A stretch of DNA of 64,000 nucleotides from IMG/VR virus record IMGVR_UViG_3300046660_000513, positions 12,252 through 76,251 of that record. The stretch is one strand, 5' to 3'. How positions within the stretch are numbered: position 1 is the stretch's first letter; each line of letters starts with the position of its first letter. Position numbers and translations under genes: made by a program. The DNA comes from a virus. Shown here piece by piece: positions 39,178 through 63,823 of the stretch. The notes below the pieces were generated by a model, which had not been told where the DNA came from, searched no databases, and saw only the letters and a program-made list of their open reading frames with translations.

Positions 39178-39178
39178 G

Positions 39179-44216: not shown

Positions 44217-44483
44217 ATGAGCCTCATAGACGATCTGGTGAGCATCGAATCCCGGCGCGGTACCTATCCCGGGCCGCAGTGCACCGTCGCAAAGATCATG
44301 GGACAGATCAGCGAAGACGACCGCGCCCAGTTGTGCCGGGTCCTGGACAACCCCGACGTCCCCGGGTCTGTCATCGCCGGGGCTCTTACCCGCAACGGGT
44401 ATCCCGTCGCCGACAAAACGGTTCTGCGCCATCGCAAGCGTGGTACGTCCTCCGGCTGCCACTGCCCCAAGGAAGACGCGTGA
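44217..44483 (+). CDS. small conserved phage protein, first gene of packaging-side operon
   Basis: C...HR..G..C.C motif, coupled to next gene. Confidence 0.65.
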   Translation: MSLIDDLVSIESRRGTYPGPQCTVAKIMGQISEDDRAQLCRVLDNPDVPGSVIAGALTRNGYPVADKTVLRHRKRGTSSGCHCPKEDA

Positions 44484-45730
44484 GCAGCGGTCTCTCCGGC
44501 GACCTGGAGGCCTTACTGCGCCTCCCCGTCGGTCAAGCGGGACCCTCCAGCACCGGACACGTCCCCACAGCCGCTGTCGGCCGGGAATGGCAGCCCGGAG
44601 TCGCATTCAACGCTGACGGGGCCATGACCGTCGTCACCGCCCCCACCACGACCAGCCCGCAAGACCCCCAGGCCTGGAAAGCTGCCGTCGAAGAACTCGG
44701 CCTCGCAGTCCCCGAAGGCTGGACCGTCCAGCTTGCCGAAGCCAAGTACGATCCAGCCGCCTGGCACCGGGACGCCCAGGGCGAAGAAGCCGTCACCCGG
44801 CCGGTATGGCGGCTGAAGTTCCGGGTTGCTCCGTCCTCTCTGGCCGGGTACGGCGCGGAGGATGTCGCGACGATGGTTCGGGACGCCATGCGCATCAAAC
44901 GCACCCCACGGCCCCCTGTAGCCCCGTCTCGGGGCCTTGTAGTCGCCTACTCCGACCCCCAGACGGGCAAAGTCGACCGCAGGGGCGGCACGCCAGAGCT
45001 GATCGCCCGCATCGCGGAGAAGTTCGACCGGCTCCAGGACCACGTCAGAGACCTCAAGACCCTCGGCCGTCCGGTGGACTCCGCCTACTGGATGGATGCC
45101 GGGGACTGCGTCGAAGGTCAGCAGAACGTCGCCTCGCAGCTTGCCACGAACGATCTGACCATGACGGAAATGGTCCGGCTGCACCGCAGGCTGACGTTCG
45201 ATGGACTGTCTCGGCTGGCCCGGCAGTTCGACTCCGTAACGGCTGCGGTGTGCGCGTCCAACCACGCCCAGCACCGCATCAACGGCAAGGTCGTCGGACC
45301 GCCGTCCGACGACTGGGGCATCGAGACGATGCAGCAGGTTGCCGACGCCTTCAACTGCAACCCGGACTCCTTCGGTCACGTCAAGTTCATCCTGCCTGAG
45401 AAATGGGAGGAGACCGTGAGCGTGGACGTCGCCGGAACAGTCGTAGGTCTTTCCCACGGTCACCAGGTGCGTGGTCCCGGCAAGGTTGTGGACTGGTGGC
45501 GCGGCCAGACGTTCGGAGAGCAGCCGGTAGCCGCCGCGAAAATCCTTCTGACCGGGCATTTCCACCACTTCCGGGCGGAAGAGGTCGGCTCCGGCAAGCT
45601 GTGGGTACAAGCCCCGGCCCTGGACAACGGGTCTTCCTGGTACGCCAATCGCACCGGCGACGACTCCCGGGCGGGTCTGCTGGTGTTCTCCGTAGGTGCG
45701 GACGGCTGGTCCGACCTTGTCATTCTCTGA
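44480..45730 (+). CDS. metallophosphoesterase-like (Mre11-like) protein
   Basis: SDPQ.GK, GD.VEG, SNH, HGH, GHFHH motifs. Confidence 0.8.
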   Translation: MSSGLSGDLEALLRLPVGQAGPSSTGHVPTAAVGREWQPGVAFNADGAMTVVTAPTTTSPQDPQAWKAAVEELGLAVPEGWTVQLAEAKYDPAAWHRDAQGEEAVTRPVWRLKFRVAPSSLAGYGAEDVATMVRDAMRIKRTPRPPVAPSRGLVVAYSDPQTGKVDRRGGTPELIARIAEKFDRLQDHVRDLKTLGRPVDSAYWMDAGDCVEGQQNVASQLATNDLTMTEMVRLHRRLTFDGLSRLARQFDSVTAAVCASNHAQHRINGKVVGPPSDDWGIETMQQVADAFNCNPDSFGHVKFILPEKWEETVSVDVAGTVVGLSHGHQVRGPGKVVDWWRGQTFGEQPVAAAKILLTGHFHHFRAEEVGSGKLWVQAPALDNGSSWYANRTGDDSRAGLLVFSVGADGWSDLVIL

Positions 45731-45744
45731 GAGGGGTATCCGCT

Positions 45745-46074
45745 GTGTCTCATGACGACGCTGAATCCGAGGGCGAAGAGCTGGCGCTCCCTCCGGGGAT
45801 GCTGCCCCTGATCCAGATCCAGGAACCGGAGGGCGACGCACTTCGGTGGACCCCCACCACGTTCTTGATTGACCTGTTCATGGCGTTCGCCGGGGTGCTG
45901 GAAGCCATCGCCGGTTTCTACGGAGACCAGGCACGCTCCCTCGCCGCGCGGGCCTCCCTCAAGGAAGAGCTGAAGGACCGGGACATCCGGCAGCGCATCA
46001 AGACGGAGGAACGTCTCCGGATGCAGCTGCACACCCTGGAGGACATCTCGTACTTACCCGAGGCCCAAGAGTGA
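45745..46074 (+). CDS. hypothetical protein
   Basis: GAGGGG RBS, GTG start. Confidence 0.55.
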   Translation: MSHDDAESEGEELALPPGMLPLIQIQEPEGDALRWTPTTFLIDLFMAFAGVLEAIAGFYGDQARSLAARASLKEELKDRDIRQRIKTEERLRMQLHTLEDISYLPEAQE

Positions 46075-46248
46075 TAGCCTAGTTCTCCGCAGTCAGGATC
46101 GCACCCCATGGCGGTCAGGTCTGCTTCCACGAACCCCGGTCTCTTACGAGCAGACCGGGGTTTCGTCATTTCCGGCATTCCCCCAGCTCTTGACTGTTCC
46201 GTACAATGATCAGACAAGTGAGCATTGACCGGGGAAAGAGGATAAGGC

Positions 46249-47955
46249 GTGGCGCGTAACGCATGGGCGGACAGACTCGCCACGCTCTACGAATTACAGG
46301 CGAAAAAGGACTCCCACCGGAACCCCGCCGTATGGGTAAACGACATCCTCGGCGAAGACATGTGGTCCATGCAGACCGCCATTTGCGAGAGTGTCCGGGA
46401 CCACCGATTCACAGCCGTCCAGTCCTGCCACGCCGCAGGCAAGTCCCACCTTGCCTCCCGCCTCTCAGCCTGGTGGATCGCCACCACACCCATGGAAGAA
46501 GTCTTCCTCGTCACCACGGCGCCCACCGCCCGTCAGGTGGCCTCCATCCTCTGGCGCTATATCCAGCGCGCCCACAACCTCGCCAAAGAGCGCGGATTCA
46601 CCATCCCCGGCCAGATCCTCTCCTCGCCGATCCCGTCCTGGAAAATCAACGGTGAACTAGTCGGCATCGGGCAGAAGCCGCCGGACAAGGAAGACTCGGC
46701 CTTCCAGGGTTTCCACGCCGAAAAGATCCTCGTTGTCATCGACGAAGCGTGCGGCGTCGACCGGTCCATCTGGGACGCCGTGGACTCCCTCGTCACCAAC
46801 GAGTCGTCCCGGGTCCTCGCCATCGGGAACCCCACCGACCCCGCGTCACACTTCCGGCAGGTGTGCTCCCCTGAGTCCCCGCTAGGCGAGAAATGGAACA
46901 AGATCCGCATCGACGCCCTGCGGTCCCCGCTGATGACCGAAGAGGCCTGCTCCCGGTACCCCCGCCTGGTGGAGTACATGAAGGAGGAAGGGATCCCCTT
47001 CGCCACCGAAGAGGTCTCCCCGACGCTCCAGAAGACGCTGGTGGGCCCGACCTGGGTCTATGAATCCATGGTGGGCTGGGGCAAAGACTCCAGCCTGTTC
47101 AAGTCCAAAGTGCGGGCCGAGTTCCCCGAAACGTCCTCCGAGGGCGTTATCCCGCTGGCCTGGGCAGAAGCCGCCATGGCCCGGTGGGAGAAATGGCGGG
47201 ACGGGACCTACATCATCGACCCGGACACCGAAGAACCCGTGTGCCTGATCGAACCGCGCGCCCAGCAGATCGGCGAGATCGTCATCGGTGCGGACATCTC
47301 CGACGGCGGCGAGGATGAGACAGTCGCCGCGATCCGGCAGGGCGAGGTGATCCGTGAACTGATCGCGTTCCCCTCCAAGGACCCGCTGACCACCGCAGAC
47401 GACCTCCAGGTGATCGCGGCCAAGCACGGGGCCCCGACGAACGCCAAGTACATCGTGGACGGTATCGGCGTCGGCTCCGGTGTCGTGGCCAAGCTGCGCC
47501 GGGACTCCCAGGACACGTACGCGTTCATCGCGGCGGCCAACAGCGGTCGCAAGGACACCACCCAGAAAATGTCGTTCATCAACGACAGGGCGGCGGCCTG
47601 GTGGAACCTGCGCGAGATTCTGAACCCGGCCCGTAAGGGCGGCGCTGTTGCCGCGTTCCCCCGGGACGACAAGCTGCTTGCGGAACTGACCTGCCCCCGG
47701 TTCGACACACAGCCCGGTACCCCGAAGTACAAAATCGAGAAGAAGGAAGACATCAGAACCCGGCTGGGGCGGTCGACCGACCGGGCAGACGCCGTGATTC
47801 AGGCGTTCTGGCTGCCTTCTGCGGTACCGGGCCCTGAGGAATTGAAGGACAACGCCTGGAAGGCTTCCGAGGAACGCTACATCGGCAACGATGATTCAGA
47901 GGCCGTGGTGGAAAAGTGGGATACGGCCTCGGATATGGAACTCTCAGGCTGGTAA
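46249..47955 (+). CDS. terL: terminase large subunit
   Basis: SCHAAGKS Walker A, TAPT, VIDEA Walker B, IGNP, GADIS..G.D nuclease, S.DRADA. Confidence 0.92.
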   Translation: MARNAWADRLATLYELQAKKDSHRNPAVWVNDILGEDMWSMQTAICESVRDHRFTAVQSCHAAGKSHLASRLSAWWIATTPMEEVFLVTTAPTARQVASILWRYIQRAHNLAKERGFTIPGQILSSPIPSWKINGELVGIGQKPPDKEDSAFQGFHAEKILVVIDEACGVDRSIWDAVDSLVTNESSRVLAIGNPTDPASHFRQVCSPESPLGEKWNKIRIDALRSPLMTEEACSRYPRLVEYMKEEGIPFATEEVSPTLQKTLVGPTWVYESMVGWGKDSSLFKSKVRAEFPETSSEGVIPLAWAEAAMARWEKWRDGTYIIDPDTEEPVCLIEPRAQQIGEIVIGADISDGGEDETVAAIRQGEVIRELIAFPSKDPLTTADDLQVIAAKHGAPTNAKYIVDGIGVGSGVVAKLRRDSQDTYAFIAAANSGRKDTTQKMSFINDRAAAWWNLREILNPARKGGAVAAFPRDDKLLAELTCPRFDTQPGTPKYKIEKKEDIRTRLGRSTDRADAVIQAFWLPSAVPGPEELKDNAWKASEERYIGNDDSEAVVEKWDTASDMELSGW

Positions 47956-48012
47956 GGCGAAAATCCTGAATGTTAGCATAAGCCGGACAGATGCATAGAC
48001 TAGGGGAGCACC

Positions 48013-49569
48013 GTGGCGGATGAGCAGTTAAATGGCAGCGACCTGCCTGCGGGCAGCGCGCTTGCCAATTATGCCTCGGACTACCTGAACAAACCCCTGA
48101 CCAAGACCGTCAACGGCGCCCCTGATGTAATCCTGGACGCCGAAGAAGGCAGCCTCTACACCTGGGCCGACTCCCTCGCCGCATCGTGGTCCGGCATACC
48201 CGGACGCATCCTCCTCGACGAGAATGAATTCGAAAGCCTCTCGTTCGATGAAATGCTCAGCCGGGACGGCAAGGCCCGCACCATTCAGCAGGTGCTCACC
48301 CTGCCCATCCGCTCCGCCCCGTGGAAAATCCTTCCGGGTCCCGGAGACAGCGGAGAGGCCGCCTTCGTACAGGCCGCGCTGACCAAGCCCGCCAACCAGG
48401 GGGGTATGAAGACCCCGATGCGGCTGCTCATCGCCCAGGCACTGTCCGCGCGCACGAACCGGAAAGCCTGTTTCGAGAAGGTCTTCACCGAACGGGACGG
48501 CAAGATCGTCTACGAGCGCCTCGCGTTCCGGCCCTCCCCGACGACAGCCATCGCCCGCGACCCGAAGACAGGGGCTTTCCGGGGGTTCCGGCAGCGCCCC
48601 GTAGCTGTGGGCGGTGAGATCTGGCCGGACATCTGGATCGACATCCCCGCGCAGTACTCCTGGGTGCACCTGAACAACCAGCACATCAACGCCGCGCGCG
48701 GGCACTCCGACATGGAACTGATCTACTGGCTGCACGACAAGAAGCAGAAAGTGCTGTTCCTTTGGGCGACGTTCCTGGAGGCGAACGCGCTCGGCCGCTA
48801 CGTGGTGCAGGCTGAGGATGAGACTCGGGCCAAGCAGTACGCACAGGCCCTGCGGTACGTCAAAAACGGCGGTGTCCTCGGCACTTCCAATGAGATCAAG
48901 GTAGAAACCCTGGAGCTGGGCACCGGTGCGGCCGGGCTGTTCAAGGACTTCATCGACTACCTGGACAACCAGATGGCGGCCTCGGTCCTCGCGGGGTTCA
49001 CCAACCTCCCGGACAGTCCCGGCGGTTCCTACGCGCTGTCCAAAGACCAGTCCGACTTCTTCCTCCAGTCCCTCACAGGTACCGCCAAGGAGCTGGCAGA
49101 GTCCATCACGAACTACGTGATCGCCGACCTGGTGATGTACAACTACGGGCCGAAGGGCGTTTGCCCGACCTTTGAGTTCGGTCCGCTGTCTGAGGGCGAC
49201 TTGGAGACGGTCAAGGCGCTGCTGCTCGGATTCGGCACAACGCCGACGGAACTCCGGGTGCCGCAGGCATTCATGACCGAGCTGACCAAGATGATGGGCA
49301 CCTATCTTGACATGCCCATGGATGAGGTCAACAAGGAATTCCAGCAGCTGGAAGAGCGCATCGACCAGCGAATGGACCTGGAGCTGGAGACAAAGAAGGC
49401 CGGTCTCGATGCCCAGAAGCAGATGGCCGCGCAGGGTGGTCCTCAGGCCGGAGCTGCGGTAGGCGCCGCGAATCAGCAGAAAAAAGCTGAGATGGCGAAG
49501 GCCGGGGCCAAGATCAACAAGGCTGCACAGATGGTCAAGCAAAAGGCCGCAGCCGCCAAGGGCAAATAA
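48013..49569 (+). CDS. portal protein (Mu gp29/DUF935-like)
   Basis: Position after TerL; FEKV, GSYALS, L..YNYG...P.F motifs. Confidence 0.85.
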   Translation: MADEQLNGSDLPAGSALANYASDYLNKPLTKTVNGAPDVILDAEEGSLYTWADSLAASWSGIPGRILLDENEFESLSFDEMLSRDGKARTIQQVLTLPIRSAPWKILPGPGDSGEAAFVQAALTKPANQGGMKTPMRLLIAQALSARTNRKACFEKVFTERDGKIVYERLAFRPSPTTAIARDPKTGAFRGFRQRPVAVGGEIWPDIWIDIPAQYSWVHLNNQHINAARGHSDMELIYWLHDKKQKVLFLWATFLEANALGRYVVQAEDETRAKQYAQALRYVKNGGVLGTSNEIKVETLELGTGAAGLFKDFIDYLDNQMAASVLAGFTNLPDSPGGSYALSKDQSDFFLQSLTGTAKELAESITNYVIADLVMYNYGPKGVCPTFEFGPLSEGDLETVKALLLGFGTTPTELRVPQAFMTELTKMMGTYLDMPMDEVNKEFQQLEERIDQRMDLELETKKAGLDAQKQMAAQGGPQAGAAVGAANQQKKAEMAKAGAKINKAAQMVKQKAAAAKGK

Positions 49570-49653
49570 AAAACCGAACCCCGCCAGGAGCCAAGCTCAA
49601 CCGGCGGGGTTCGATCACCCAACCACCCAAAATGGATATTACTGGGAGGGTGC

Positions 49654-50283
49654 ATGTCGGAGCAAGCTCAGCAAAAGGCCCAAAGCGAATCTTCACAACA
49701 GGATGCCGAGATTGCTGCTGTCGTCGCCATTCTGGTAGCGGGTCCGCCCCTCATTACCGCAATGAAGGCCATTTCAGTTGCAGCGAAACTCCCCAAAAAG
49801 CTAGTACTAGCCCTACTAGCCATCATCAAGTACAAACCAGGCAAAAAGGCACAGGCCAAGGGATCCGGCCCCGTCACAGCCGCCCTGAAAAAGAACATGC
49901 GCTACCGGGCCGCCTACCTCATCAACGCCGCACAGAGACTGGCCGCAGCCCCCGACCTGGAAGCAGCCATCGCCCGGGAAAAAACGCTGTTTGCCGCCCA
50001 CAAGGAGGCCTCAGCACGCCGCACCGCAGCAGCGAAAGCCTCCGTAGCCATGGCCACCACCAGCCACAGCCCCGTCCTGGGATGGGGCGGCATCCTCGAC
50101 AACCGCACCACCCCGGACTGCCGCTGGCTCATCGGGAAAAACTATTCCGTCGACAACCCGCCCGAAGGACTCCACCCCGGCGCCCGGCACCCGCGCTGCC
50201 GGTGCTACCCAACTCCGTCCTACCCCGGAAAACCGGTCGTCACAGAACTCCCGGCACACCTCAGCGGGAATTCTCCCCTATAG
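49654..50283 (+). CDS. MuF-like head morphogenesis protein
   Basis: D.RTT..C ... HPRCRC motif after portal. Confidence 0.85.
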   Translation: MSEQAQQKAQSESSQQDAEIAAVVAILVAGPPLITAMKAISVAAKLPKKLVLALLAIIKYKPGKKAQAKGSGPVTAALKKNMRYRAAYLINAAQRLAAAPDLEAAIAREKTLFAAHKEASARRTAAAKASVAMATTSHSPVLGWGGILDNRTTPDCRWLIGKNYSVDNPPEGLHPGARHPRCRCYPTPSYPGKPVVTELPAHLSGNSPL

Positions 50284-50368
50284 GTACTAGCCTCCCAGAT
50301 TGACGAATAAACAGGTAGTTTGGTATCCGGCATGCCTGCTGAAAACACGCGCGCAAGGAGACCTCACT

Positions 50369-50692
50369 ATGGCTACCGCCTTAACTGTCCTTTCTGCCTC
50401 CAATGGTGGCCTGTCCACCTTTACCACCGTCGCAGCGGACACCACCGGGAACACGTTCTCGAATGACGGCCGCACCTGGCTGTTCATCGACGGGGGCGCC
50501 GCCGGTGGCACGCTCATCGTGAAGTCCAACGCCATTCTCCCCACGGGCCTGGTCGTTCCGGACAAGACGTACACCATCGCCGCGACCACCACGTACCTCC
50601 TCGACCCGTCGGACTTTCCGTACGTCGTCACCGGCGACACCGTGAAGGTCACCGCGTCCGTCACCACGATCAAGCTCGCCGCGTTCCACTAA
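50369..50692 (+). CDS. small beta-rich virion protein
   Basis: AAGGAG RBS, head module position. Confidence 0.7.
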   Translation: MATALTVLSASNGGLSTFTTVAADTTGNTFSNDGRTWLFIDGGAAGGTLIVKSNAILPTGLVVPDKTYTIAATTTYLLDPSDFPYVVTGDTVKVTASVTTIKLAAFH

Positions 50693-50721: not shown

Positions 50722-51888
50722 ATGAGTGCAGAGACTGGGGCGTTAGCGACCACCCCGCATCCGTTAGGAAAGCCGAACGGACCGGGTCTTTTCGGAAACA
50801 AGTCGTTGAGCCTCCCGCCGTATGTGCAAAACGTGGCCCAGAGCCTTATGGAGAAGCGCGGGATGGATCGCTCCCGGGCAATCGCCACGGCCATCGGAGT
50901 CATGAAGAACTGGGCATCCGGGCAGGGGAAGGTGCACCCCGAGGTCCGTGCTGCGGCAGGCGCGGCCCTGGCGGAGTGGGAAGCCGCAAAAATGAAGGCC
51001 CACGCCACCCCCAACAAGGGCGCTGTGAGCCTGTCCCAGCCGATGACTCTCCTGCGCTCCATCCTGGACGGCTCCACTGCGGTGGAACTGGCGCAGACCG
51101 CCACAGAGCCCTCAGGAGGCCCGAAGCCCGCCAAGGCCCCGGCCAAGCAGGACAAGAAGGCCCAGCAAGACCAGCAGCAGACCAAGCACCAGCTGCCTCC
51201 GGGCGCTACAGGCTGGAAGCATGGGTGGATTCCTGTCGATTCGTCCGGAAAAGCTGTCGGTCCATCGCAGATGAACAAGTCTGCGCAGGAGATCAAGGAC
51301 ATGACGGGCCACGACCAGGCCACCAAGGACGCGATCGCCTCCGCGTACCACAACAAGTCAGTTGCTGACGGCAAGAAAGCCGCCACAAAGGCCAAGTCCG
51401 CCAAGAAGAAGGCGGACGCCGCCGCCAAGCATGCCGCAAAGGCCAAGACCGCAGCCGCCAAGAAGGCGCTCCGGGCCAAGGTAGTCGCCGCGAAGAAGGC
51501 TGCGGTGGCTGCCAAGAGGAATGCCGCAGCTATCGCGAAAAACAAGGCTGCGAAGACGAAGGCCCGTCAGAAGCTGGTCACTCAGGCCACCCGGCAGGCG
51601 CTCGCGGACAAGAAGGCGGGCCGGTCGCTGACGCCGTCACAGGTCCGGCTGCTGGACGCGTACAACTCTCAGCAGGCCTCGCAGCTGGACAACCTGCGTA
51701 ACAACGTGTCGCTGTCTCAGCCGGTTGGCGGGGAATCCCAGGTCACTGTCCCTACGGGTTCTTCGCAGGACGGCCCTCGTAGCACGGTAAACAGCCTGCT
51801 CTCCTCGGTTCCGAAGCGGAAGCTCGCGGATGCCGCGCTGAAGGCTCAGAAGACGCGGCGTGATCGCCGCAGGAAGGGCGGGAAGTGA
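50722..51888 (+). CDS. Lys/Ala-rich putative internal head protein
   Basis: Histone-like AAKK repeats, WKHGWI motif. Confidence 0.75.
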   Translation: MSAETGALATTPHPLGKPNGPGLFGNKSLSLPPYVQNVAQSLMEKRGMDRSRAIATAIGVMKNWASGQGKVHPEVRAAAGAALAEWEAAKMKAHATPNKGAVSLSQPMTLLRSILDGSTAVELAQTATEPSGGPKPAKAPAKQDKKAQQDQQQTKHQLPPGATGWKHGWIPVDSSGKAVGPSQMNKSAQEIKDMTGHDQATKDAIASAYHNKSVADGKKAATKAKSAKKKADAAAKHAAKAKTAAAKKALRAKVVAAKKAAVAAKRNAAAIAKNKAAKTKARQKLVTQATRQALADKKAGRSLTPSQVRLLDAYNSQQASQLDNLRNNVSLSQPVGGESQVTVPTGSSQDGPRSTVNSLLSSVPKRKLADAALKAQKTRRDRRRKGGK

Positions 51889-57404: not shown

Positions 57405-57441
57405 TTAGACCGCGTGTGCTAGTATTAGGGTAGATAAGGAG

Positions 57442-57660: not shown

Positions 57661-57676
57661 TCTCCCGCCAGGCAAA

Positions 57677-57712
57677 CAGAGAACCCCCGGACACCCGTCC
57701 GGGGGTTCTCTG
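57677..57712. terminator. bidirectional terminator
   Basis: CAGAGAACCCCCGGAC-ACCC-GTCCGGGGGTTCTCTG between convergent genes. Confidence 0.8.
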
Positions 57713-57723
57713 CGTATCTGGAC

Positions 57724-59568
57724 TCAGCTGGCCCGGTTGCGCAAGATCTCCACCTTGTCCCCGGTGAGCTGCCAGCCCTTCAGAGACTTCCCGGTGGCCT
57801 TGTTCTTGATCACTTTCTCCTCGAACCCGGCAACCTTGGCCTGCGCCACGAACGCGGAAGCCGAGTGCACCCGGTCCTCGATCTTGTTCCCCATGAAAGC
57901 CCTCCAGGCGTCCGCCAGAGTGCGCGGATGAATGAAGATCGCATCACCCTGCATGTCCTCGGTGCGGTAGAACGCCGGAGCCGTCACGAACGACTTGCCA
58001 GAAATCTTGATCGGCTCGAACGCCGCCAGCCCATGCCCCGCCCAGTCTCCGTACTCGTGCAGGGCCCACGGCAGAACATCCGTGGTCAGAGCGTTGTCCC
58101 AGGAGTTCGCATACTTCAAGTCCTCCTGAACCCACGCCCACACACGCTCATAGGTAGAACCCTTCTTGCCCCACGCCTTCGGATCCCCCAGAAGATGATC
58201 CACGAAGCACGCCCCCGCCAGAAGGACCGCGTACTTGTCCCCGAGGCGCCCCGGGCACGGCTTCGTCTCATCGATCAGAGCCTCCACGTCGTCCAGCCAG
58301 CGCAGGATCTCCGCCACGACCGTCCCCGCCATCGCGGCCATACCCTGGGCGCCCGGATACTTGCGCATCAAGGACGTCACGTCGGTCCACTGCGACAGAT
58401 GCTCACGGCCGGGGATCTGGGACTTCCGGTTGGTGGGGTCCGTCAGCTCCAGCAGGATGATCCGGTCCGCCAACGCCTTCTGAGACTTCAGGCCCAAGTG
58501 CTCCCCGGTCAGCAGAATCGTTCCTGTCATGTGGGAGTGCTGCGACGCCTTGAACCCCGACTCGTGCGACCGCATCATCTTCGTGCCGTCCGACGTCGAC
58601 AGCCGCAGCATCTCAAAAACCACCTTCGGTTCATCCAGGTCGTCTATGTGCACGAACCCGGACCGGGTGGAAGCGATCTTCTGCCGGACATCCGGCACCG
58701 TGCCCTGCGACGGACCCGAGGTATTGCCCGTGAGGATCTGCCGGAGCATCGAGAGCGCCCCCGTCGTCTTACCTGACCCGGACGGCGCCTCCACGGCCAT
58801 CACCGGGAAATGGGACGTGTGCTGAATGATCCCGGACTGGACCAGGGACATGACCATCCACGCCGCCACAACCGCGAGAGGCGTTTCGTCATGGAACGTC
58901 AGCACCTGGGACAGAACATCCTTGACCTCGGCCAGACCGTTCTTCGCCATCCCGTAGGAGAACGGGGCATCCCCCGACGTCGACAGCTGAGCCGACGGAC
59001 GGTACGGGGCCGCCAGGTCAAACTTCGTCTCTCCGGGCCTCAGAATGCCCTCGTGTGACACGAACACGTTCAAGTCAGGGTGGTACCCCAGCTGGTCCAC
59101 GATCGTCGCCTCAGGCGGATTCTGGGCGTTGATGTACCGCAGCAGCCGGACCCCCTGGGACACGCCACCACCCAGAGCACCGTCCGGGCACATCACCGAC
59201 ACACCCGCCGACGTCAGCCACAACGTCAGCTTGCGCGGATCCGCGAGCGTTTTCTCATCCAGAATCCGACGGAGTTCCTTCCCATCAGCCTGACGGACAA
59301 TCACGACATCCCAGGCCCGGCGCTCCGTCGTATCATCCGCGATGATCCCAAGCGCCCTGATGTCAAAGTTTCCGTACGGCTCCTCGTCATAGATGTACTT
59401 ACCCGACTCCGTAGGGTCCTTCGCACGCGTACGAACGTGGACCACGCCCTCCTGCGAGCAGAGCCAGCCCGTATCAAGATCAGCGTTAGTAACAAGGGTG
59501 GAGGCAACAGGCGTGTCGGTTGCCTGGGGGGTGCTAGGGGAGATAGTCTCAGACACAGAGAGATGCAC
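57724..59568 (-). CDS. P-loop NTPase, probable primase-associated replicative helicase (DUF927-like)
   Basis: FPV..VEAPSGSGKTT Walker A, VHIDD Walker B, LTGE, DR. Confidence 0.7.
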   Translation of the reverse strand: MHLSVSETISPSTPQATDTPVASTLVTNADLDTGWLCSQEGVVHVRTRAKDPTESGKYIYDEEPYGNFDIRALGIIADDTTERRAWDVVIVRQADGKELRRILDEKTLADPRKLTLWLTSAGVSVMCPDGALGGGVSQGVRLLRYINAQNPPEATIVDQLGYHPDLNVFVSHEGILRPGETKFDLAAPYRPSAQLSTSGDAPFSYGMAKNGLAEVKDVLSQVLTFHDETPLAVVAAWMVMSLVQSGIIQHTSHFPVMAVEAPSGSGKTTGALSMLRQILTGNTSGPSQGTVPDVRQKIASTRSGFVHIDDLDEPKVVFEMLRLSTSDGTKMMRSHESGFKASQHSHMTGTILLTGEHLGLKSQKALADRIILLELTDPTNRKSQIPGREHLSQWTDVTSLMRKYPGAQGMAAMAGTVVAEILRWLDDVEALIDETKPCPGRLGDKYAVLLAGACFVDHLLGDPKAWGKKGSTYERVWAWVQEDLKYANSWDNALTTDVLPWALHEYGDWAGHGLAAFEPIKISGKSFVTAPAFYRTEDMQGDAIFIHPRTLADAWRAFMGNKIEDRVHSASAFVAQAKVAGFEEKVIKNKATGKSLKGWQLTGDKVEILRNRAS

Positions 59569-59654
59569 CTCTCGCTACACCCCCCGACCTGCGACCGGTC
59601 GGGGGGTTCTTACGTTTGTAGGGCAGACCCTAACACGTGGATCACGGCTGACGT

Positions 59655-59923
59655 GGTTACCCCCGAGGACGTAACCGACCGAGTAACTTGATCTTGGTCG
59701 TTCGCCTGTCTAACGATTTGAAGATCATCTTTTACCAAACCCATGGACGTTACGCAGCGGGTACCTTTAAGTTACTTGGCAAAAAGTAACCCAAATACGC
59801 CCTCTGACCTGCATGTTTAATGATCATTACCTGGTTACCTGTGATTTGCATGCCCATACGTGCGCGCATGCGCCTGCGTACGCGCGATGTGTCGTGTCCA
59901 TATTTTCAAAACGGGTAACCGGG
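59655..59923 (+). repeat. ori-like element copy 2 (GTTAC/GTAAC-rich)
   Basis: Colinear homology with 22276-22540; directly upstream of the helicase-like gene. Confidence 0.75.
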
Positions 59924-60088
59924 CTCCGAGGGCTCCGAGAGCCCTGCACGTGGTCGGCTTCAAACTTGCTGCATCGAAGCCTGTGTGGTTCCTGCGGGGA
60001 AGCCTGCGACCAGAAACGTAGAATGGCCAGTACCAACGGAGTCGCAACCGTCGTACTGGCCATCTCTACGCCCTAGGAGGGCTCTCCC

Positions 60089-60567
60089 ATGCTACCGCCT
60101 GGCTACACCGTGCTCGAAGACGGCACGATCCTGGGTAAAAAGGGCATGCCCTTGAAACTCGGTACAGATCGCTACGGCTACAGCCAGTTCAGCGTTCGTG
60201 TAAACGGTAAGAGGAAGACCTTCACAGCCCATAAAGCAGTGTGCGAAGCCTTCCACGGTCCGAAGCCGTTCCCGGAAGCCCAGGTACGTCACATCAATGG
60301 TGTGAAATCGGACAATCGGGCATCAAATCTCCGATGGGGGACACCCTTGGAGAACACAGAAGACAAACGCCTGCACGGGGTGGCTCGGGGTGCTGCACAC
60401 GAGGGCGCCGGAACCATAACGCCAAGTTGACAGAGCAGCAGGTCCGGGACATCCGAGCCCGCTACTCCGCTGGCGGGGTTCTTCAACGAGAGCTAGCCAA
60501 GGAGTTCGGGGTCAGTGCGCGGACCATTTGCGTGATCCTTCAGAGGAAGATGTGGGCACACATCTGA
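60089..60567 (+). pseudogene. HNH endonuclease with frameshift before its C-terminal HTH
   Basis: H..VC.AFHG...VRHING...DNR..NL.WGT..EN in one frame; NHNAKLTE..V..IR in another, junction near 60410. Confidence 0.75.
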
Positions 60568-60733
60568 AATAGCCCGTATTACCGGTCCCCCGGTTAGCGG
60601 CCATCCAATGGTGCTACCGGGGGCCTTCCCTTTTCTCCTCTTGCTTGATTCGGTGGCCGATGCTAGGCAATACTAGGATCATTGGCTAGTATTAGGCGCA
60701 GTCACGATTTCAGGACAGAGCGAGGTAAAGAGG

Positions 60734-62362
60734 ATGGCGGAACGCGAATTACTGTTATCCCCTCAGGATGACGGTGATGCCGTCGAGCTGTCTTCCCGGG
60801 TATACCGCAAGCGGATTCTTCCGCTGGCTACCATCAACTACCGTGGTCGAAAGATCTCGTTTGACGCGCAGTACCTCACCGACCTGGCGCAGTCCTTCAA
60901 CTCAGGGGCCTACGATCAGGTCGCCTTCATGCTGGCCGACACGAACAACGCCCACACGCTGGACCCTGAGAGGTTCCGTGGCGAGGTGCAGGGTGTGGAG
61001 GTCGGGGACGACGGTCTGTACGCCACGATCCAGGTCACCCCTGAAGCCGCCAAGGTGCTGGAGCAGAACCCGAAATTAGGTGTCTCTGCGCGCATCCTCG
61101 AAAACTACGAGCGCTCGGACGGGAAGCAATTCCCCCGGGCGCTTCAACATGTCCTTGGCACTTTGGACCCGGTTATCCCCGGGCTAGGTAGCTGGGAAGA
61201 GGTTGCCCTGTCCAACGGAATCGACCCGGGCAACGTGATTGACCTGTCCGAACATTCCTATGAGGAGTTGGAGCCCGTGGCAACCCGCCAGGAACATTTA
61301 CAGCAGGTGGCTGCGGCTACCGACATGACCGTGGAAGACCTCGAAGCGCTCGGGATGACGGATGACGAGTTGGCGATTTTCGCCTCCGCGTTCGTCGAGG
61401 ATGCGCCCGCAGCCGAGATCGCAGCCGATACCGGCGACGACGAGCTGATCGAAGAGCCCGGCGAGCAGGCCGGTCTTCTTGACGTGTCTGACGACACCGA
61501 CGAACTTCCTTCCGAGGCGGAGATCGAGGCGGCCGTCGAGGCGCTCTCCGACGAGGAGCTGACCGCTCTGGCCGCCGAACTCGGCATCCCTGCCGACGAG
61601 GAGCTGGAGACGGGCGAGGAGGAGGCCACGGCGGAGGCCACGGCGGAGGCCGAGGCTGAGACCGAGGCCATTGCCGAGGAGACCGTCGAGACTCCTGCCG
61701 AACCGACGGACGCCGAACTGGCGGAGCGTCTGGGTACCGGTGAGTTCGGCAGCGGGCTGGAAGACCCGATCGCCGCCGATCCGGACCTGAGCGATCTGTC
61801 TGACGAAGACCTGGCGAAGATGACCGAGATGTGGGAGACCGCCCACAATCTCGATGAGGCTGCCGCGACCGAGGAAGCTGCCGCCGTTGCTGCGGAGGCT
61901 GCCGAATCTTCGGCGACTGCCGAGGAGACTGCCGGGACTGTGGCGGAAGCCACGGAGGTTCCGCAGCTTGTCGGTGCGGGCTCGGTCTCCCTGTCCAACG
62001 AGGCGGGTCCGGAGGTTGTGGCCCTGTCCAACCAGGTGGCGACGCTTCAGCAGCAGTTGGCGATCCAGGGGTTCGACGCCCTCAAGCGGGAGTACGTCCG
62101 CCAGGGCGTTCCTTCAGCTCTGGTCGACCTGGCCCGTCCGATTCTCGTCGCCGGGCAGGCTCTGGAGTTCTCCAACAGCACTGGTGACCGCGTCGATCCT
62201 GCGGCCATCGTGAAGCAGCTTCTAGATTCCGCCACCGGCTATATCGATCTGGCTCGTGAACGCGGCCACAGCTACTCGCCGGAGGCCGAGGACAAGGCGG
62301 CGATGCAGGCCGAGGACGACAAGCGTCTTGCCTCCCTGTGGGGCGAGCAGTACGGCAACTGA
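60734..62362 (+). CDS. capsid maturation protease / scaffold protein
   Basis: N-terminal H...GVSA...HV..T..P protease-like domain, long acidic scaffold-like region, upstream of capsid genes. Confidence 0.8.
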   Translation: MAERELLLSPQDDGDAVELSSRVYRKRILPLATINYRGRKISFDAQYLTDLAQSFNSGAYDQVAFMLADTNNAHTLDPERFRGEVQGVEVGDDGLYATIQVTPEAAKVLEQNPKLGVSARILENYERSDGKQFPRALQHVLGTLDPVIPGLGSWEEVALSNGIDPGNVIDLSEHSYEELEPVATRQEHLQQVAAATDMTVEDLEALGMTDDELAIFASAFVEDAPAAEIAADTGDDELIEEPGEQAGLLDVSDDTDELPSEAEIEAAVEALSDEELTALAAELGIPADEELETGEEEATAEATAEAEAETEAIAEETVETPAEPTDAELAERLGTGEFGSGLEDPIAADPDLSDLSDEDLAKMTEMWETAHNLDEAAATEEAAAVAAEAAESSATAEETAGTVAEATEVPQLVGAGSVSLSNEAGPEVVALSNQVATLQQQLAIQGFDALKREYVRQGVPSALVDLARPILVAGQALEFSNSTGDRVDPAAIVKQLLDSATGYIDLARERGHSYSPEAEDKAAMQAEDDKRLASLWGEQYGN

Positions 62363-62400
62363 CCGGGGCTCCCGGCAGCAACTCTCAAAGGAGATAGATC

Positions 62401-62862
62401 ATGGGTTTGAGCCCCGTCTTCAAGCACGGTTCACCGCAGACTTTCCAGGTCATCAGCTCCGGCACCGTTCGTGCGGGCCGTCTGGTGGAGTACGTCACGG
62501 AGTCCAGCACCACCAAGGTCCAGGAAGCCGCCGTGACCAGCCTCAAGGTGGCCGGTGTCGCGATCGATGACGCCATCGGTACGTCGACTCCGGGTGCGGA
62601 CATCACGTACGGCACGGGCGTCACCCGTCGCGCCTACGACACGTCCACGATGGTCGACACCATCGGCGTTTCCACGTGCGGCGTCTGGAACCTGGTCGCG
62701 GGTGCTGCCGTCGCCGCGTTCGATGTTCTCAAGGCTGGCGCTGCGGGGACCGTCGTGACCTGGGTGTCCGGTACCGACTCACCGGCGGCCATCATCGGGA
62801 TTGCGCAGGCCGCGATCTCCAACGGAGCCACCGGCCCCGTTTCGCTTCGTCTCGGCGTCTGA
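62401..62862 (+). CDS. head decoration / cement protein
   Basis: Small beta-rich protein (AGVA..DA, IG.A) between scaffold and MCP. Confidence 0.7.
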   Translation: MGLSPVFKHGSPQTFQVISSGTVRAGRLVEYVTESSTTKVQEAAVTSLKVAGVAIDDAIGTSTPGADITYGTGVTRRAYDTSTMVDTIGVSTCGVWNLVAGAAVAAFDVLKAGAAGTVVTWVSGTDSPAAIIGIAQAAISNGATGPVSLRLGV

Positions 62863-62902
62863 TCCGTCCGAGCTGAACAGATCTAGAAAGGACGACTGAG
62901 AC

Positions 62903-63823
62903 ATGCCTCAGACCACTGTCGGTACCGTTTCTTCGAACGATGGCTTCCGCCTCACAGTCAACACGCTGCTCAAGCGGCCGACTGTCATCCGGGAGCGCAT
63001 TCTCCGGCTGGCTGACCAGCAGTTCATCACGGACACCGTCTTACGCAAGGTGCAGGACGTGCCGTCTGGCGTTGTTCTGTACAACGAGTCGACTCCGCTG
63101 TACGCCAACGGCGGCCCGTCGGTCGTCGCGGAAGGCGGCGAGATCCCGCTGATCACGGCGAACCTCGGCATCGGCAAGGCGGCCCGCACCATCAAGCGCG
63201 CCTTCGGTATCGAGTTCACCGAGGAGATGCGCCGTCGCAACGACATGGACCGCGTCAACACCTCGATCGCGCAGGTCGTCAACTCCATGAAGGCGGCGTG
63301 GGAGGACGCGTTCCTCTCTTCGGCCATCGCGGGTCTCGCGTCGACTGCTTCCGGTACCGCGTGGGCGACTGCCACGGACGTCCGGTCCACGCTCGCGAAC
63401 GCGATGCTGGCGATCCAGCTCGCTGACGCGGAGTCCACGGACCAGACGGGCGTGCAGAAGTTCGGGTTCGAGCCCGACACTTTGATCCTGCATCACGCCC
63501 GTGCGATGGACCTGGCGCTCAACAGCGACATGAACAAGTACTTCGTCGGCTCCGGCTCCCCGAACTCCGCGTACGCGGACAAGCTGACCCTTCCGGGTCT
63601 GCTCTTCGGCCAGTTCAAGGTCGTCAAGTCGTGGCGTGTCCCCACCAACTCCGCGATCCTCCTGGAGGCCGGGACCATCGGTGGTATCGCCGACGAGCGT
63701 GCGTTGGACGTGACGCCGCTGGAGCACAACAGCACCAACGAAACCTGGCGCTGCAATGTGGTGAGGCAGAGCGCGATCTTCCTGGACCAGCCGAAGGCCG
63801 GTCGCGTCATCACCGGCATCTGA
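62903..63823 (+). CDS. major capsid protein (HK97 fold)
   Basis: VAEGGEIP, G.EFTEE..RRN, PDTL, DQPKA...ITGI; size and position. Confidence 0.85.
   Translation: MPQTTVGTVSSNDGFRLTVNTLLKRPTVIRERILRLADQQFITDTVLRKVQDVPSGVVLYNESTPLYANGGPSVVAEGGEIPLITANLGIGKAARTIKRAFGIEFTEEMRRRNDMDRVNTSIAQVVNSMKAAWEDAFLSSAIAGLASTASGTAWATATDVRSTLANAMLAIQLADAESTDQTGVQKFGFEPDTLILHHARAMDLALNSDMNKYFVGSGSPNSAYADKLTLPGLLFGQFKVVKSWRVPTNSAILLEAGTIGGIADERALDVTPLEHNSTNETWRCNVVRQSAIFLDQPKAGRVITGI

What the first reader, a model, noticed from the sequence alone, without database searches (positions are those of the whole stretch)
44480..63823. Morphogenesis and lysis genes carry rare TTA codons, mostly near their 5' ends: possible bldA-gated phage production
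Seen, in-frame TTA: metallophosphoesterase codon 12 (44513), TerL codon 16 (46294), portal codon 6 (48028), 50369 gene codon 5, 50722 gene codons 8 and 15, giant ART gene codons 8, 14, 36 (51906, 51924, 51990), protease codons 6 and 8 (60749, 60755) plus 61076 and 61298, MCP codon 47 (63041). The endolysin has three (minus strand, 7420, 7408, 6868). By eye I found none in parA, resolvase, prim-pol or the helicase. Other TTA genes (RyR 27296, 32077 gene) lack the early promoter motif. Known: in Streptomyces TTA is the rarest codon and is read by the developmentally regulated bldA tRNA-Leu(UAA). Inference: the element could persist as a plasmid in vegetative hyphae while virion assembly and lysis are translationally licensed when bldA tRNA accumulates, i.e. 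a codon-encoded developmental switch.
Basis: partly seen in the sequence, partly recalled or inferred. Interest (0 to 1): 0.88.

Follow-up and report, generated by a model that had tools for sequence, protein, structure and literature searches.

The report
Rare TTA codons gate phage late genes
In an uncultured ~125-kb phage family of Streptomyces-like soil bacteria, the rarest leucine codon (TTA) is kept out of about 150 early genes but maintained by selection near the start of most virion and lysis genes, so particle production probably depends on the host's developmentally regulated bldA tRNA.

Summary
Every listed TTA is in frame at the stated coordinates. One was missed: codon 104 of the 45745 gene.

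- **Rarity:** TTA is the rarest sense codon.
- **Gene class:** In the 76-kb record, 10 of 13 virion/lysis genes carry TTA against 2 of 117 others (p=7e-11). In a 97%-complete relative the split is 20/35 against 4/157. There TTA also marks the holin and two remote tail-spike genes.
- **Position:** At codons 2-20 of late genes, TTA makes up 23-34% of leucine codons. In other genes it is 0-0.4%.
- **Specificity:** The excess is frame-specific, and CTA, CTT, TTG and AGA do not share it.
- **Conservation:** TTA is conserved across about 9 lineages at roughly 77% nucleotide identity, with nearby replacement when a site is lost.
- **No phage decoder:** No phage tRNA reads UUA. The only phage tRNA has anticodon CAA.
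- **Host:** TerD (81-87% identity) and the endolysin point to Streptomycetaceae, where bldA is the only UUA decoder.

Best reading (about 0.55): a codon-encoded, bldA-dependent translational gate on the late programme.

Caveats:
- bldA dependence is untested.
- The 5' ends of late genes are under general synonymous constraint.
- Two MAGs labelled Bacillota hold relatives.

The scan has seen TTA partitions in other phages, but at least two of those carry their own tRNA-Leu(UAA). This counts as a new variant of a known kind.

The parts
6175..7686 (-). Endolysin (GH25 plus a Streptomyces-phage-type C-terminal half). In-frame TTA at codons 89, 93 and 273 (7420-7422, 7408-7410, 6868-6870). It lies 37 kb from the virion block, inside the early region.
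   Evidence: Pfam and PHROG. TTA positions. Codons 93 and 273 are conserved in G1. Homologues are in Streptomycetaceae.
7766..7799 (-). Terminator-like hairpin (13-bp stem followed by UUUUU). It sits between the preceding early-operon gene and the endolysin, insulating the endolysin from the early promoter at 8564-8577.
   Evidence: Fold gives -31.5 kcal/mol, z = -7.5; sequence. The consensus scanner did not list it.
27224..27610 (+). RyR-domain gene, a TTA-bearing exception outside the late set. TTA at codon 25 (27296-27298).
   Evidence: PF02026 and phrog_5154 at E=5e-35. The TTA is conserved in G1.
32077..32643 (+). phrog_1128 / C92-like gene, the second exception. TTA at codons 35 and 51.
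   Evidence: Codon 35 is conserved in G1 and G2.
39178..39253 (-). The only phage tRNA. Its anticodon is CAA (reads UUG, not UUA). It is 76 nt with a short variable loop.
   Evidence: ARAGORN and Rfam. A permissive Rfam scan of the 97%-complete relative finds no other tRNA.
44480..45730 (+). Exonuclease / metallophosphoesterase-like gene (phrog_284) at the head of the TTA block. TTA at codon 12 (44513).
   Evidence: The TTA is kept in G1 and moved to codon 5 in G2, but is absent in five other lineages.
45745..46074 (+). Small gene with TTA at codon 104 (46054-46056).
   Evidence: Codon 104 is TTA in 8 of 11 sequences, and L005/L006 carry TTA at codon 95 instead.
46249..47955 (+). Large terminase. 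TTA at codon 16 (46294).
   Evidence: tblastn. TTA is present in 14 of 14 sequences that include the N-terminus.
48013..49569 (+). Portal (Portal_Mu / DUF935). TTA at codon 6 (48028).
   Evidence: TTA in 14 of 15 sequences; L015 carries TTA at codon 13 instead.
49654..50283 (+). MuF-like head morphogenesis gene. It has no TTA in the window, but 5 of 9 related lineages carry TTA at codon 14, 27, 52, 54 or 74.
50369..50692 (+). Small head-module gene. TTA at codon 5.
   Evidence: TTA in 14 of 14 sequences.
50722..51888 (+). Head-module gene. TTA at codons 8 and 15.
   Evidence: The start is supported by homology from residue 1. Codon 8 is TTA in 12 of 14 sequences.
51885..57404 (+). Giant 1839-aa protein with a C-terminal ADP-ribosyltransferase domain. 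TTA at codons 8, 14 and 36.
   Evidence: PF03496. The G1 orthologue carries TTA at codons 6, 33 and 43.
57724..59445 (-). DNA primase/polymerase (phrog_5177) embedded in the block on the opposite strand. It has no TTA, which makes it an internal control.
60734..62362 (+). TTA at codons 6, 8, 115 and 189.
   Evidence: No Pfam or PHROG hit. Codon 115 is conserved in G1 and G2, codon 189 in G2, and codons 6 and 8 alternate between TTA and TTG.
62401..62862 (+). Scaffolding protein. No TTA.
   Evidence: phrog_673.
62903..63823 (+). Major capsid protein. TTA at codon 47 (63041).
   Evidence: tblastn. TTA is conserved in G1 and G2.
1521..43110 (.). Early regulon. 33 of the 35 copies of the promoter-like motif TGCTAGGGTAGATA lie here, and none lies between 43110 and 57423. 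This gives a classification of early genes that is independent of TTA.
   Evidence: 35 matches against 0.1 expected.

Best explanation
This is a codon-encoded translational gate on the phage's late programme.

The phage is about 125 kb, has 63% GC, and most probably infects Streptomycetaceae. It keeps the leucine codon UUA out of its early, replication and maintenance genes. It maintains at least one UUA, usually within the first 20 codons, in most virion and lysis genes, wherever they sit in the genome.

The phage has no tRNA for UUA, so these mRNAs can only be read by the host's single tRNA-Leu(UAA), the bldA product. When that tRNA is scarce or poorly modified (young vegetative hyphae), ribosomes would stall a few codons after initiation. 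A stall there blocks further loading, so little terminase, portal, capsid, tail, holin or endolysin is made. Meanwhile the UUA-free early genes replicate and partition the DNA. When bldA tRNA becomes available, the late proteins are made and particles are released.

Shown:
- the codon pattern;
- its frame specificity, class specificity and 5' bias;
- its evolutionary maintenance;
- the lack of a phage decoder;
- the Streptomycetaceae affinity.

Inferred:
- ribosome stalling;
- dependence on bldA;
- coupling to host development;
- plasmid-like persistence.
For: **Class specificity**
- 10 of 13 late genes carry TTA against 2 of 117 others in the record.
- In the 97%-complete relative G1 the split is 20/35 against 4/157, p=4e-14.
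- TTA follows function rather than location:
  - Carrying TTA: the endolysin (37 kb from the virion block, behind its own terminator), the holin, and two tail-spike genes 20 kb past the tail block (codons 3 and 7 in both).
  - TTA-free: a prim-pol gene inside the block and the SNF2 helicase just after the holin.
- The TTA set is complementary to the early-promoter regulon.

**5' bias**
- In G1 late genes, TTA/Leu is 10/32 at codons 2-10, 4/27 at codons 11-20 and 6/679 beyond codon 100.
- The rise is 13.6x for TTA against 1.2-2.7x for most A/T-ending codons (ATA 4.6x; AGA 5.8x from one codon). CTA and CTT are not enriched.

**Frame specificity**
- TTA trinucleotides at late codons 2-20 number 14, 1 and 2 in frames 0, 1 and 2.
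- No shared flanking motif is visible by eye.

**Selection**
- P(same codon | same amino acid), G0 against G2: TTA 8/11, against TTG 9%, CTA 8%, CTT 10% (p=1e-5).
- G0 against G1: 14/17 against about 32%.
- Retention at single sites: TerL codon 16 in 14/14, portal in 14/15 plus one relocated, the 50369 gene in 14/14.
- Lost sites are replaced nearby, for example portal codon 6 to 13, exonuclease codon 12 to 5, and codon 104 to 95 in the 45745 gene.

**No phage decoder**
- The only tRNA is tRNA(CAA), in G0, G1 and G2. This holds even at Rfam E<=1.
- TTG is not enriched in late genes.

**Host**
- TerD is 81-87% identical to chromosomal TerD of hundreds of Streptomyces, Kitasatospora and Streptacidiphilus.
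- The endolysin is 47-51% identical over its full length to Streptomyces proteins, and its C-terminal half up to 76% to Kitasatospora and Streptomyces proteins.
- Among isolated phages, TerL, MCP and prim-pol match Streptomyces phages best; the endolysin's C-terminal half also matches mainly their lysins.

**Literature**
- bldA is the only UUA tRNA in S. coelicolor (PMC2000904).
- TTA bias towards gene starts is seen in streptomycetes but not in other actinobacteria (PMC4255298).

**Against an expression-level ramp**
- Low-copy proteins (TerL, portal, tail spikes) carry conserved early TTAs, while the scaffold has none and MCP has a single one at codon 47.
Against: - There is no experimental or RNA evidence at all.
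- The real host is not isolated. Two independent MAGs labelled Bacillota/Firmicutes contain contigs of this phage family. One of them is a genuine Spo0A-bearing Firmicute of similar GC.
- Non-preferred codons at codons 2-20 of late genes are generally conserved: 54% of lineage cells against 77% for TTA. Site conservation at 5' ends is therefore only modestly TTA-specific.
- The gate is incomplete. Three of the 13 late genes in the record lack TTA (scaffold, MuF, and the truncated last ORF), as do 15 of 35 in G1.
- The exonuclease gene's TTA is lost in most lineages.
- Two or three non-late genes (RyR, phrog_1128) carry conserved TTAs.
- From my own knowledge: how strictly bldA tRNA limits UUA decoding in young hyphae is debated, and varies with species and medium.
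- The closest isolated relatives (for example Streptomyces phage Stuff) have no TTA at all, so such a gate is not needed for this virion type.
Confidence: 0.55

Rival explanations
1. Kinetic throttle or ramp without a developmental meaning. UUA is simply the slowest codon available and is placed early in late mRNAs. There it could space ribosomes, delay or damp late protein synthesis, or suppress leaky translation of read-through transcripts. None of this would track host development.
For: Late genes show a general 5' rise in A/T-ending and rare codons (AT3 0.29 against 0.16; ATA 4.6x). Non-preferred codons at late 5' ends are generally conserved. The mechanism would still rest on scarce tRNA-Leu(UAA).
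Against: The TTA rise (13.6x) far exceeds the general ramp, and the other AT-rich leucine codons are not enriched. Early genes have a ramp but 1 TTA in 231 leucine codons at codons 2-20. TTA presence does not follow expected expression level: TerL and portal have it, the scaffold does not, and MCP has one only at codon 47. TTA is also conserved deep inside genes (60734 gene codons 115 and 189, endolysin codon 273, MCP codon 47).
Confidence: 0.15
2. The host is not a streptomycete. It could be a high-GC spore-forming Bacillota, as the MAG labels suggest. In that case the TTA pattern is a rare-tRNA gate or adaptation unrelated to bldA.
For: A 15.9-kb contig with 91% TerL identity sits in a MAG titled 'Bacillota bacterium'. 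That MAG has about 60-63% GC, tRNA arrays and Spo0A, and no WhiB. A second MAG labelled Firmicutes holds a portal at 83% identity. The phage lacks WhiB.
Against: Phage contigs are often binned by composition alone. No TerD homologue was found in that MAG, whereas phage TerD is 81-87% identical to Streptomycetaceae TerD. Named relatives of the endolysin are almost all Streptomycetaceae, and its C-half matches mostly Streptomyces-phage lysins, though its GH25 half also hits other phyla. Among isolated phages, TerL, MCP and prim-pol match Streptomyces phages best; MCP and prim-pol hit only actinobacterial phages. DUF2637 and Rv2179c-like families are present. None of 200 genomes of the MAG's class has a related portal. 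In a rough ORF sample of that MAG, TTA is not especially rare (0.19%).
Confidence: 0.08
3. tRNA titration as host manipulation. Abundant late mRNAs loaded with UUA soak up the scarce bldA tRNA, or trigger ppGpp. That would starve host TTA genes such as adpA and antibiotic-cluster activators, and so blunt development-linked containment of infection.
For: [quoted passage not shown] TTA occurs in many highly transcribed late genes.
Against: Titration needs many UUA codons anywhere in abundant mRNAs. It does not need one or two near the start of low-copy genes. The most abundant proteins (MCP, scaffold) carry one or none. The 5' bias is not explained.
Confidence: 0.07
4. The phage supplies its own decoder. 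The unusual class-I-shaped tRNA with anticodon CAA would read UUA after modification of C34 (lysidine-like) or by C-A wobble. That would make a phage-autonomous early-to-late timer, as in phages that carry a tRNA for their late-gene codons.
For: The tRNA is conserved in all three large genomes, with compensatory stem changes and an invariant CAA anticodon. It lacks the long variable arm of bacterial tRNA-Leu. Other phages seen in this scan with TTA partitions carry their own tRNA-Leu(UAA).
Against: C34 pairs with G. No such modification is known for a Leu tRNA (my own knowledge). The phage has 106 TTG codons that the tRNA can serve directly. Nothing in the sequence indicates UUA reading.
Confidence: 0.05
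5. No function. TTAs accumulate in late genes through AT-biased mutation and relaxed selection, or arrived with a horizontally acquired lower-GC module.
For: The phage has 63% GC against roughly 72% for streptomycete hosts (the host figure is from my own knowledge), so AT-ward pressure is plausible. A Saccharopolyspora phage-plasmid has 7 TTAs, all in its structural module, without 5' bias.
Against: Late and early genes have the same GC3 (0.80-0.88). TTA is retained like a preferred codon across lineages, while other non-preferred codons turn over. The 5' concentration, frame specificity and compensatory relocation are not expected under drift.
Confidence: 0.03

Closest known systems
Streptomyces bldA regulon: rare TTA codons read only by the developmentally significant tRNA-Leu(UAA)
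   Same: TTA is the rarest codon. It is absent from growth or 'early' genes and present in a functionally coherent set. It is biased towards gene starts, which is a streptomycete hallmark (PMC4255298). The only decoder available is the host's single tRNA (PMC2000904).
   Different: Here the TTA set is a virus's virion and lysis genes, not host regulators or secondary-metabolite genes. TTA is present in most genes of the module rather than in one regulator per pathway. Dependence on bldA is not tested.
Streptomyces contractile injection systems (eCIS / phage tail-like particles) cited together with bldA and TTA codons
   Same: These are phage-derived structural gene clusters in Streptomyces. 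The papers describing them discuss TTA codons and bldA (PMC8505568 and PMC10020575, listed; I did not read them in detail).
   Different: They are host-domesticated particles, not a replicating phage. I did not check how many of their genes carry TTA or where in the genes it lies.
Phage phiHau3 / StrepC.1 terminase UUA sites (Smith et al. 2013; Antonov et al. 2023, PMC10732093)
   Same: A Streptomyces phage packaging gene carries UUA, and this was proposed as a sensor of the host's growth stage.
   Different: In Hau3 the UUAs precede 7-10-nt frame-breaking inserts and are proposed to trigger translational bypassing when the tRNA is absent. Only 3 of 100 terminases had this arrangement. Here all ORFs are continuous and colinear with relatives, and UUA is spread over about 20 late genes. 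The same paper states that Streptomyces phage genomes usually lack UUA entirely.
Phage-encoded tRNAs matched to late-gene codons
   Same: Early and late genes use different codons, and a rare codon is concentrated in structural genes.
   Different: The defining element, a phage tRNA cognate to the enriched codon, is absent. The phage's only tRNA reads UUG, which is not enriched in late genes.
Papillomavirus late (L1/L2) genes, whose codon usage restricts capsid synthesis to differentiated cells (from memory, not checked here)
   Same: The concept is the same: capsid protein translation is tied to the host cell's differentiation state through codon and tRNA matching.
   Different: That is a eukaryotic virus with a whole-gene codon bias, not one or two sentinel codons near the start. 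There is no shared ancestry or machinery.

Membership tests
bldA/TTA translational control (works-like test) | The host belongs to Streptomycetaceae, where one tRNA-Leu(UAA) decodes UUA. | tested here: met
   By inference only. TerD is 81-87% identical to Streptomycetaceae TerD. Named endolysin relatives are almost all Streptomycetaceae. TerL, MCP and prim-pol have Streptomyces phages as nearest isolates. The counter-signal is two Bacillota-labelled MAGs. The single-decoder statement comes from PMC2000904.
bldA/TTA translational control (works-like test) | TTA is very rare and excluded from genes needed for growth or early functions. | tested here: met
   TTA is the rarest sense codon. In-frame TTA runs at 0.37-0.67 per 1000 positions in non-late genes, against about 0.7-2.4 out of frame. 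There is none in ParA, resolvase, either prim-pol gene, or helicase.
bldA/TTA translational control (works-like test) | TTA is positionally biased towards gene starts. | tested here: met
   TTA/Leu is 31% at codons 2-10 against 0.9% beyond codon 100. In the record the contrast is 10/29 against 8/403.
bldA/TTA translational control (works-like test) | Expression of the TTA genes requires bldA and is restored by recoding. | not testable with these tools
   This needs reporters or phage growth in wild-type and bldA-mutant hosts.
Phage tRNA / late-codon matching (T4 type) | The phage encodes a tRNA cognate to the codon enriched in late genes. | tested here: not met
   Only tRNA(CAA) is found in G0, G1 (97% complete) and G2. 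TTG is not enriched in late genes or at 5' ends.
UUA-triggered translational bypassing (phiHau3 type) | UUA is followed by a short frame-disrupting non-coding block inside the gene. | tested here: not met
   All TTA genes are single open frames that align colinearly with relatives through the TTA sites.
Generic 5' rare-codon / AT ramp | All A/T-ending or rare codons rise similarly at 5' ends, in step with expression level. | tested here: inconclusive
   A ramp exists: 1.2-2.7x for most codons, ATA 4.6x. TTA is an outlier at 13.6x. CTA and CTT stay flat. Early genes ramp without TTA. The pattern does not follow expected protein abundance.

The most novel reading that the evidence does not exclude
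The phage uses the host's developmental tRNA as its lysis-or-persistence switch. With ParA, a resolvase and an early-promoter regulon free of UUA, it would replicate and segregate as an episome in vegetative hyphae. It would make particles only in compartments where bldA tRNA is active, at the onset of aerial growth and mycelial autolysis. That would be a decision circuit written in synonymous codons rather than in a repressor. It would also show that UUA rarity in streptomycetes can be exploited by a virus, not only serve as a barrier against viruses.
Probability: 0.3. Interest if true: 0.9.

Novelty: new variant of a known kind. Interest (0 to 1): 0.8.

Why it matters
Published work holds that Streptomyces phages usually avoid UUA altogether (PMC10732093). 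It has also been proposed that UUA rarity may have evolved partly as a check on phage gene expression (PMC2000904).

This phage family does the opposite. It maintains UUA in a targeted way, in the genes that commit the cell to particle production and lysis. If the gate works as inferred, it is the first clear case of a phage reading its host's developmental state through one tRNA.

Two further consequences follow:
- It would explain how a large phage could coexist with a growing mycelium.
- It gives a simple, portable test system: 20-codon leaders that should be bldA-dependent.

It also offers a sequence signature for mining other viruses and mobile elements: a rare codon that is in frame, 5'-biased, class-specific and conserved, with no cognate viral tRNA.

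Tried and rejected
- **Nucleotide search:** Megablast of the TerL-portal DNA against isolated phages found nothing.
- **Low-stringency ARAGORN with introns:** It gave only implausible hits and was discarded.
- **Shared motif around TTA:** None was seen by eye among about 85 listed contexts.
- **Late promoter motif:** Inspection of the regions upstream of late genes found none.
- **WhiB in the phage genomes:** None found.
- **Related prophage portals:** None in 200 genomes of the Bacillota MAG's class.
- **tRNA-Leu(UAA) in that MAG:** Not found among 53 tRNA hits, but the MAG is incomplete, so this says nothing.
- **RNA evidence:** No RNA holder was listed among the public runs. All holders are rhizosphere metagenome DNA.
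- **The look-up of encoding contigs:** I therefore could not inspect the 95-165-kb Streptomyces isolate contigs that encode the nearest TerD and endolysin homologues.
- **PLSDB:** It holds no close relative.
  - The 130-kb Streptomyces sp. MBT27 plasmid (TerL 28% identity) has only 3 TTAs in the 50 kb examined, all in non-structural genes.
  - The Saccharopolyspora pogona phage-plasmid has 7 TTAs, all in the structural module, without 5' bias.
- **Terminator scanner:** It listed nothing upstream of the endolysin, although folding shows a strong hairpin plus U-run.
- **Smith et al. 2013:** The paper (PMC3807479) is not held.
- **Structure and complex prediction:** Not used, because they do not bear on a codon-level claim.

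Full report
**What the DNA is**

The window is bases 12252-76251 of a 76,251-bp IMG/VR virus record that CheckV rates 59% complete, with 63% GC. Public runs that hold it are rhizosphere metagenomes.

The region from 44.5 kb to 64 kb is a head module. It holds:
- an exonuclease-like gene and a small ORF;
- large terminase, a Mu-type portal and a MuF-like protein;
- two small or medium ORFs;
- a 1839-aa protein ending in an ADP-ribosyltransferase domain;
- an opposite-strand DNA primase/polymerase;
- a 542-aa protein of no known family;
- the scaffold and the major capsid protein.

The rest of the window holds about 100 mostly small genes. They include ParA, a resolvase, a second Prim-Pol, TerD, an ADP-ribosylglycohydrolase, a deaminase and a GH25 endolysin. 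There are 35 copies of a promoter-like motif, TGCTAGGGTAGATA, and none lies between 43110 and 57423 (lead from earlier notes of this scan).

Fourteen IMG/VR relatives share 85-91% TerL identity and about 77% nucleotide identity. I fetched two large ones whole: G1 (124,939 bp, 97% complete) and G2 (89,483 bp).

**The observation**

I called genes with a self-trained codon model that was made neutral to TTA. I then curated the calls with family hits. One further TTA was missed (45745 gene, codon 104).

TTA is the rarest sense codon in the record, at 18-21 of about 20,400 codons.

| Measure (whole record) | Late genes | Other genes | p |
|---|---|---|---|
| Genes with TTA | 10 of 13 | 2 of 117 | 7e-11 |
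| TTA among leucine codons | 18 of 432 | 3 of 1244 | 1e-8 |
| TTA among leucine codons at codons 2-20 | 10 of 29 | 0 of 197 | - |

Within late genes, TTA/Leu is 10/29 at codons 2-20 and 8/403 elsewhere (p=1e-8). Codons of similar rarity (AGA, CTA, ATA, CCA) show no late-block enrichment.

**The pattern follows function, not map position**

In G1, 20 of 35 virion/lysis genes carry TTA against 4 of 157 others (p=4e-14). The set extends through the tail genes, the tape measure (codons 16, 74, 84) and a holin.

It also includes two tail-spike genes that lie 20 kb beyond the tail block. Both begin with TTA at codons 3 and 7.

The controls go the other way. The SNF2 helicase directly after the holin has no TTA. 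Neither does the primase/polymerase embedded in the head module.

The endolysin lies 37 kb away among early operons. It is separated from the upstream early promoter by a strong hairpin plus U-run.

**Is this only the usual AT-rich 5' end?**

Partly, but not mainly. Late genes do have a 5' ramp. AT3 is 0.29 at codons 2-10 against 0.16 in gene bodies. Most A/T-ending codons rise 1.2-2.7x, ATA rises 4.6x, and AGA 5.8x on a single codon.

TTA rises 13.6x, from 1.7% to 23% of leucine codons. The other AT-rich leucine codons, CTA and CTT, do not rise. Early genes have a milder ramp and only 1 TTA in 231 leucine codons at codons 2-20.

The excess is confined to the reading frame. At late codons 2-20, TTA trinucleotides number 14, 1 and 2 in frames 0, 1 and 2. 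No common flanking motif is visible by eye. The signal is therefore read by ribosomes, not by a DNA- or RNA-binding factor.

**Evolutionary maintenance**

Given a conserved amino acid, the window's codon is retained as follows:

| Comparison | TTA | Other non-preferred Leu codons (TTG, CTA, CTT) | Preferred CTG |
|---|---|---|---|
| G0 against G2 | 8 of 11 | 8-10% (p=1e-5) | 74% |
| G0 against G1 | 14 of 17 | about 32% (p=8e-5) | 85% |

Across one representative per lineage:
- TerL codon 16 is TTA in all 14 sequences that have the N-terminus.
- Portal codon 6 is TTA in 14 of 15, and the exception has TTA at codon 13.
- The 50369 gene's codon 5 is TTA in 14 of 14.
- The 50722 gene's codon 8 is TTA in 12 of 14.

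Losses tend to be matched by nearby gains. Examples are the exonuclease gene (codon 12 to 5), the 45745 gene (codon 104 to 95), and MuF, which has codon 14, 27, 52, 54 or 74 in different lineages.

An honest caveat applies. Non-preferred codons in codons 2-20 of late genes are conserved in general, at 54% of lineage cells against 23% in gene bodies. TTA's 77% at 5' ends is therefore only modestly above its neighbours. In gene bodies the contrast is strong: 83% against 23%.

**No phage decoder**

ARAGORN and Rfam find one tRNA in each of G0, G1 and G2, always with anticodon CAA. A permissive Rfam scan (E<=1) of the whole 125-kb relative adds nothing. TTG, the codon that tRNA reads, shows no late or 5' enrichment.

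This separates the case from other TTA partitions that this scan has seen in phages, at least two of which carry their own tRNA-Leu(UAA). The tRNA itself is odd. It is 76 nt with a short variable loop instead of the long arm of bacterial tRNA-Leu, and it evolves fast with compensatory changes.

**Host**

Evidence for Streptomycetaceae:
- The phage TerD protein is 81-87% identical to chromosomal TerD of hundreds of Streptomyces, Kitasatospora, Streptacidiphilus and Peterkaempfera. The gene has the highest GC3 in the window, as expected for a recent host-derived gene.
- The endolysin's full-length relatives (47-51%) are in Streptomyces isolates. Its C-terminal half reaches 76% identity with Kitasatospora and Streptomyces proteins and 44% with Streptomyces phage lysins.
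- Among isolates, TerL, MCP and prim-pol match Streptomyces phages best.

Evidence against:
- One GTDB MAG titled 'Bacillota bacterium' holds a 15.9-kb contig of this family. It is a real Firmicute: it has Spo0A and tRNA arrays, and no WhiB was found.
- A second MAG labelled Firmicutes holds a related portal.

That MAG has no detectable TerD. None of 200 genomes of its class has a related portal. I read these two cases as binning by similar composition.

**Mechanism**

In streptomycetes bldA is the only tRNA for UUA (PMC2000904). A bias of TTA towards gene starts is a feature of streptomycete genomes but not of other actinobacteria (PMC4255298).

The most economical reading is that late-protein synthesis in this phage family is conditional on bldA tRNA supply. 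A stall within the first 5-16 codons would also block further initiation. That makes the gate sharp and cheap (inference).

It would let UUA-free early, replication and partition functions run while terminase, portal, tails, holin and endolysin wait.

An expression-level ramp is less likely. Low-copy proteins carry the best-conserved early TTAs, while the scaffold has none and MCP has one at codon 47.

Drift or relaxed selection is contradicted by the conservation, the frame specificity and the 5' bias. Hau3-type bypassing does not apply, because all frames are continuous (PMC10732093).

**Novelty**

The library holds no report of a phage whose late genes carry a conserved TTA set. Antonov et al. 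state that Streptomyces phage genomes usually lack UUA entirely. The nearest isolated relative I checked, Streptomyces phage Stuff, has none in 15,565 codons. A 2026 paper merely lists nine TTA genes in phage CW39 and speculates about bldA.

I therefore class this as a new variant of a known kind of control. It is well supported at the sequence level and untested functionally.

Noticed in passing
window 13154-13302 (+): A tRNA-like element that ARAGORN and Rfam do not call. It has a 7-bp acceptor stem, a perfect T-arm (GGGGG-TTCGACT-CCCCC), an anticodon-like hairpin readable as GAG, and A-CC after the acceptor stem. A structured insert of about 80 nt sits where the D-arm should be. It would not read UUA.
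   Followed up: partly
window 39178-39253 (-); G1 45897-45972; G2 35371-35453: The phage tRNA with anticodon CAA is class-I shaped in G0 and G1 (76 nt, 5-nt variable loop) and 83 nt in G2. Its stems differ between genomes with compensatory changes, while CAA and the discriminator A are kept. Its amino-acid identity and its role are open.
   Followed up: partly
L010, L011, L012, at the point matching window 46446/46447 (TerL codon ~66): Three relatives carry an insertion of about 1 kb inside the terminase gene. It could be an intein, an intron or a homing-endonuclease insertion. The N-terminal exon still has TTA at codon 16.
   Followed up: no
window 1521-59545: There are 35 copies of TGCTAGGGTAGATA (0.1 expected) heading early operons on both strands. 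The motif looks like an extended -10 of the TGN-TANNNT type. Two copies lie inside the late block, at 57423 (before a 69-aa ORF) and at 59532.
   Followed up: partly
window 59600-60700: About 1.1 kb between the primase/polymerase gene and the 60734 gene has no confident gene call. It lies downstream of an early-type motif at 59532, so it may encode an RNA or atypical small ORFs.
   Followed up: no
window 25047-25643 (+): A TerD gene 81-87% identical to chromosomal TerD of Streptomycetaceae, with GC3 of 0.90. It looks like a recently captured host gene and is a strong marker of the host.
   Followed up: yes
L034 (JAQBPS010000646.1) and protein P0130: Contigs of this phage family sit in two MAGs labelled Bacillota/Firmicutes. 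This is probably mis-binning of a phage with similar GC, and is worth flagging for those MAGs.
   Followed up: partly
G1 108085-110598 and 110665-113970 (L026:8085-13970): Two adjacent pectate-lyase-fold tail-spike genes lie far from the tail block. They share an N-terminus (MPLP.GL..TV) with TTA at codons 3 and 7. The second ends in a polysaccharide-deacetylase / K1-lyase-like domain.
   Followed up: partly
L074 (Saccharopolyspora pogona plasmid NZ_CP031143.1, 36103-86102): An 86-kb circular phage-plasmid with ParA and a TerL 40% identical to the window's. All 7 TTA codons in the 50 kb examined lie in the 22-kb stretch spanning the structural module, with one just upstream of it, and show no 5' bias.
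   Followed up: partly
window 36685-37815 (-) and 51885-57404 (+): An ADP-ribosylglycohydrolase without TTA lies in the early region. The ADP-ribosyltransferase domain sits at the end of the TTA-bearing giant head protein. The two could form a writer/eraser pair split across the two codon classes.
   Followed up: no
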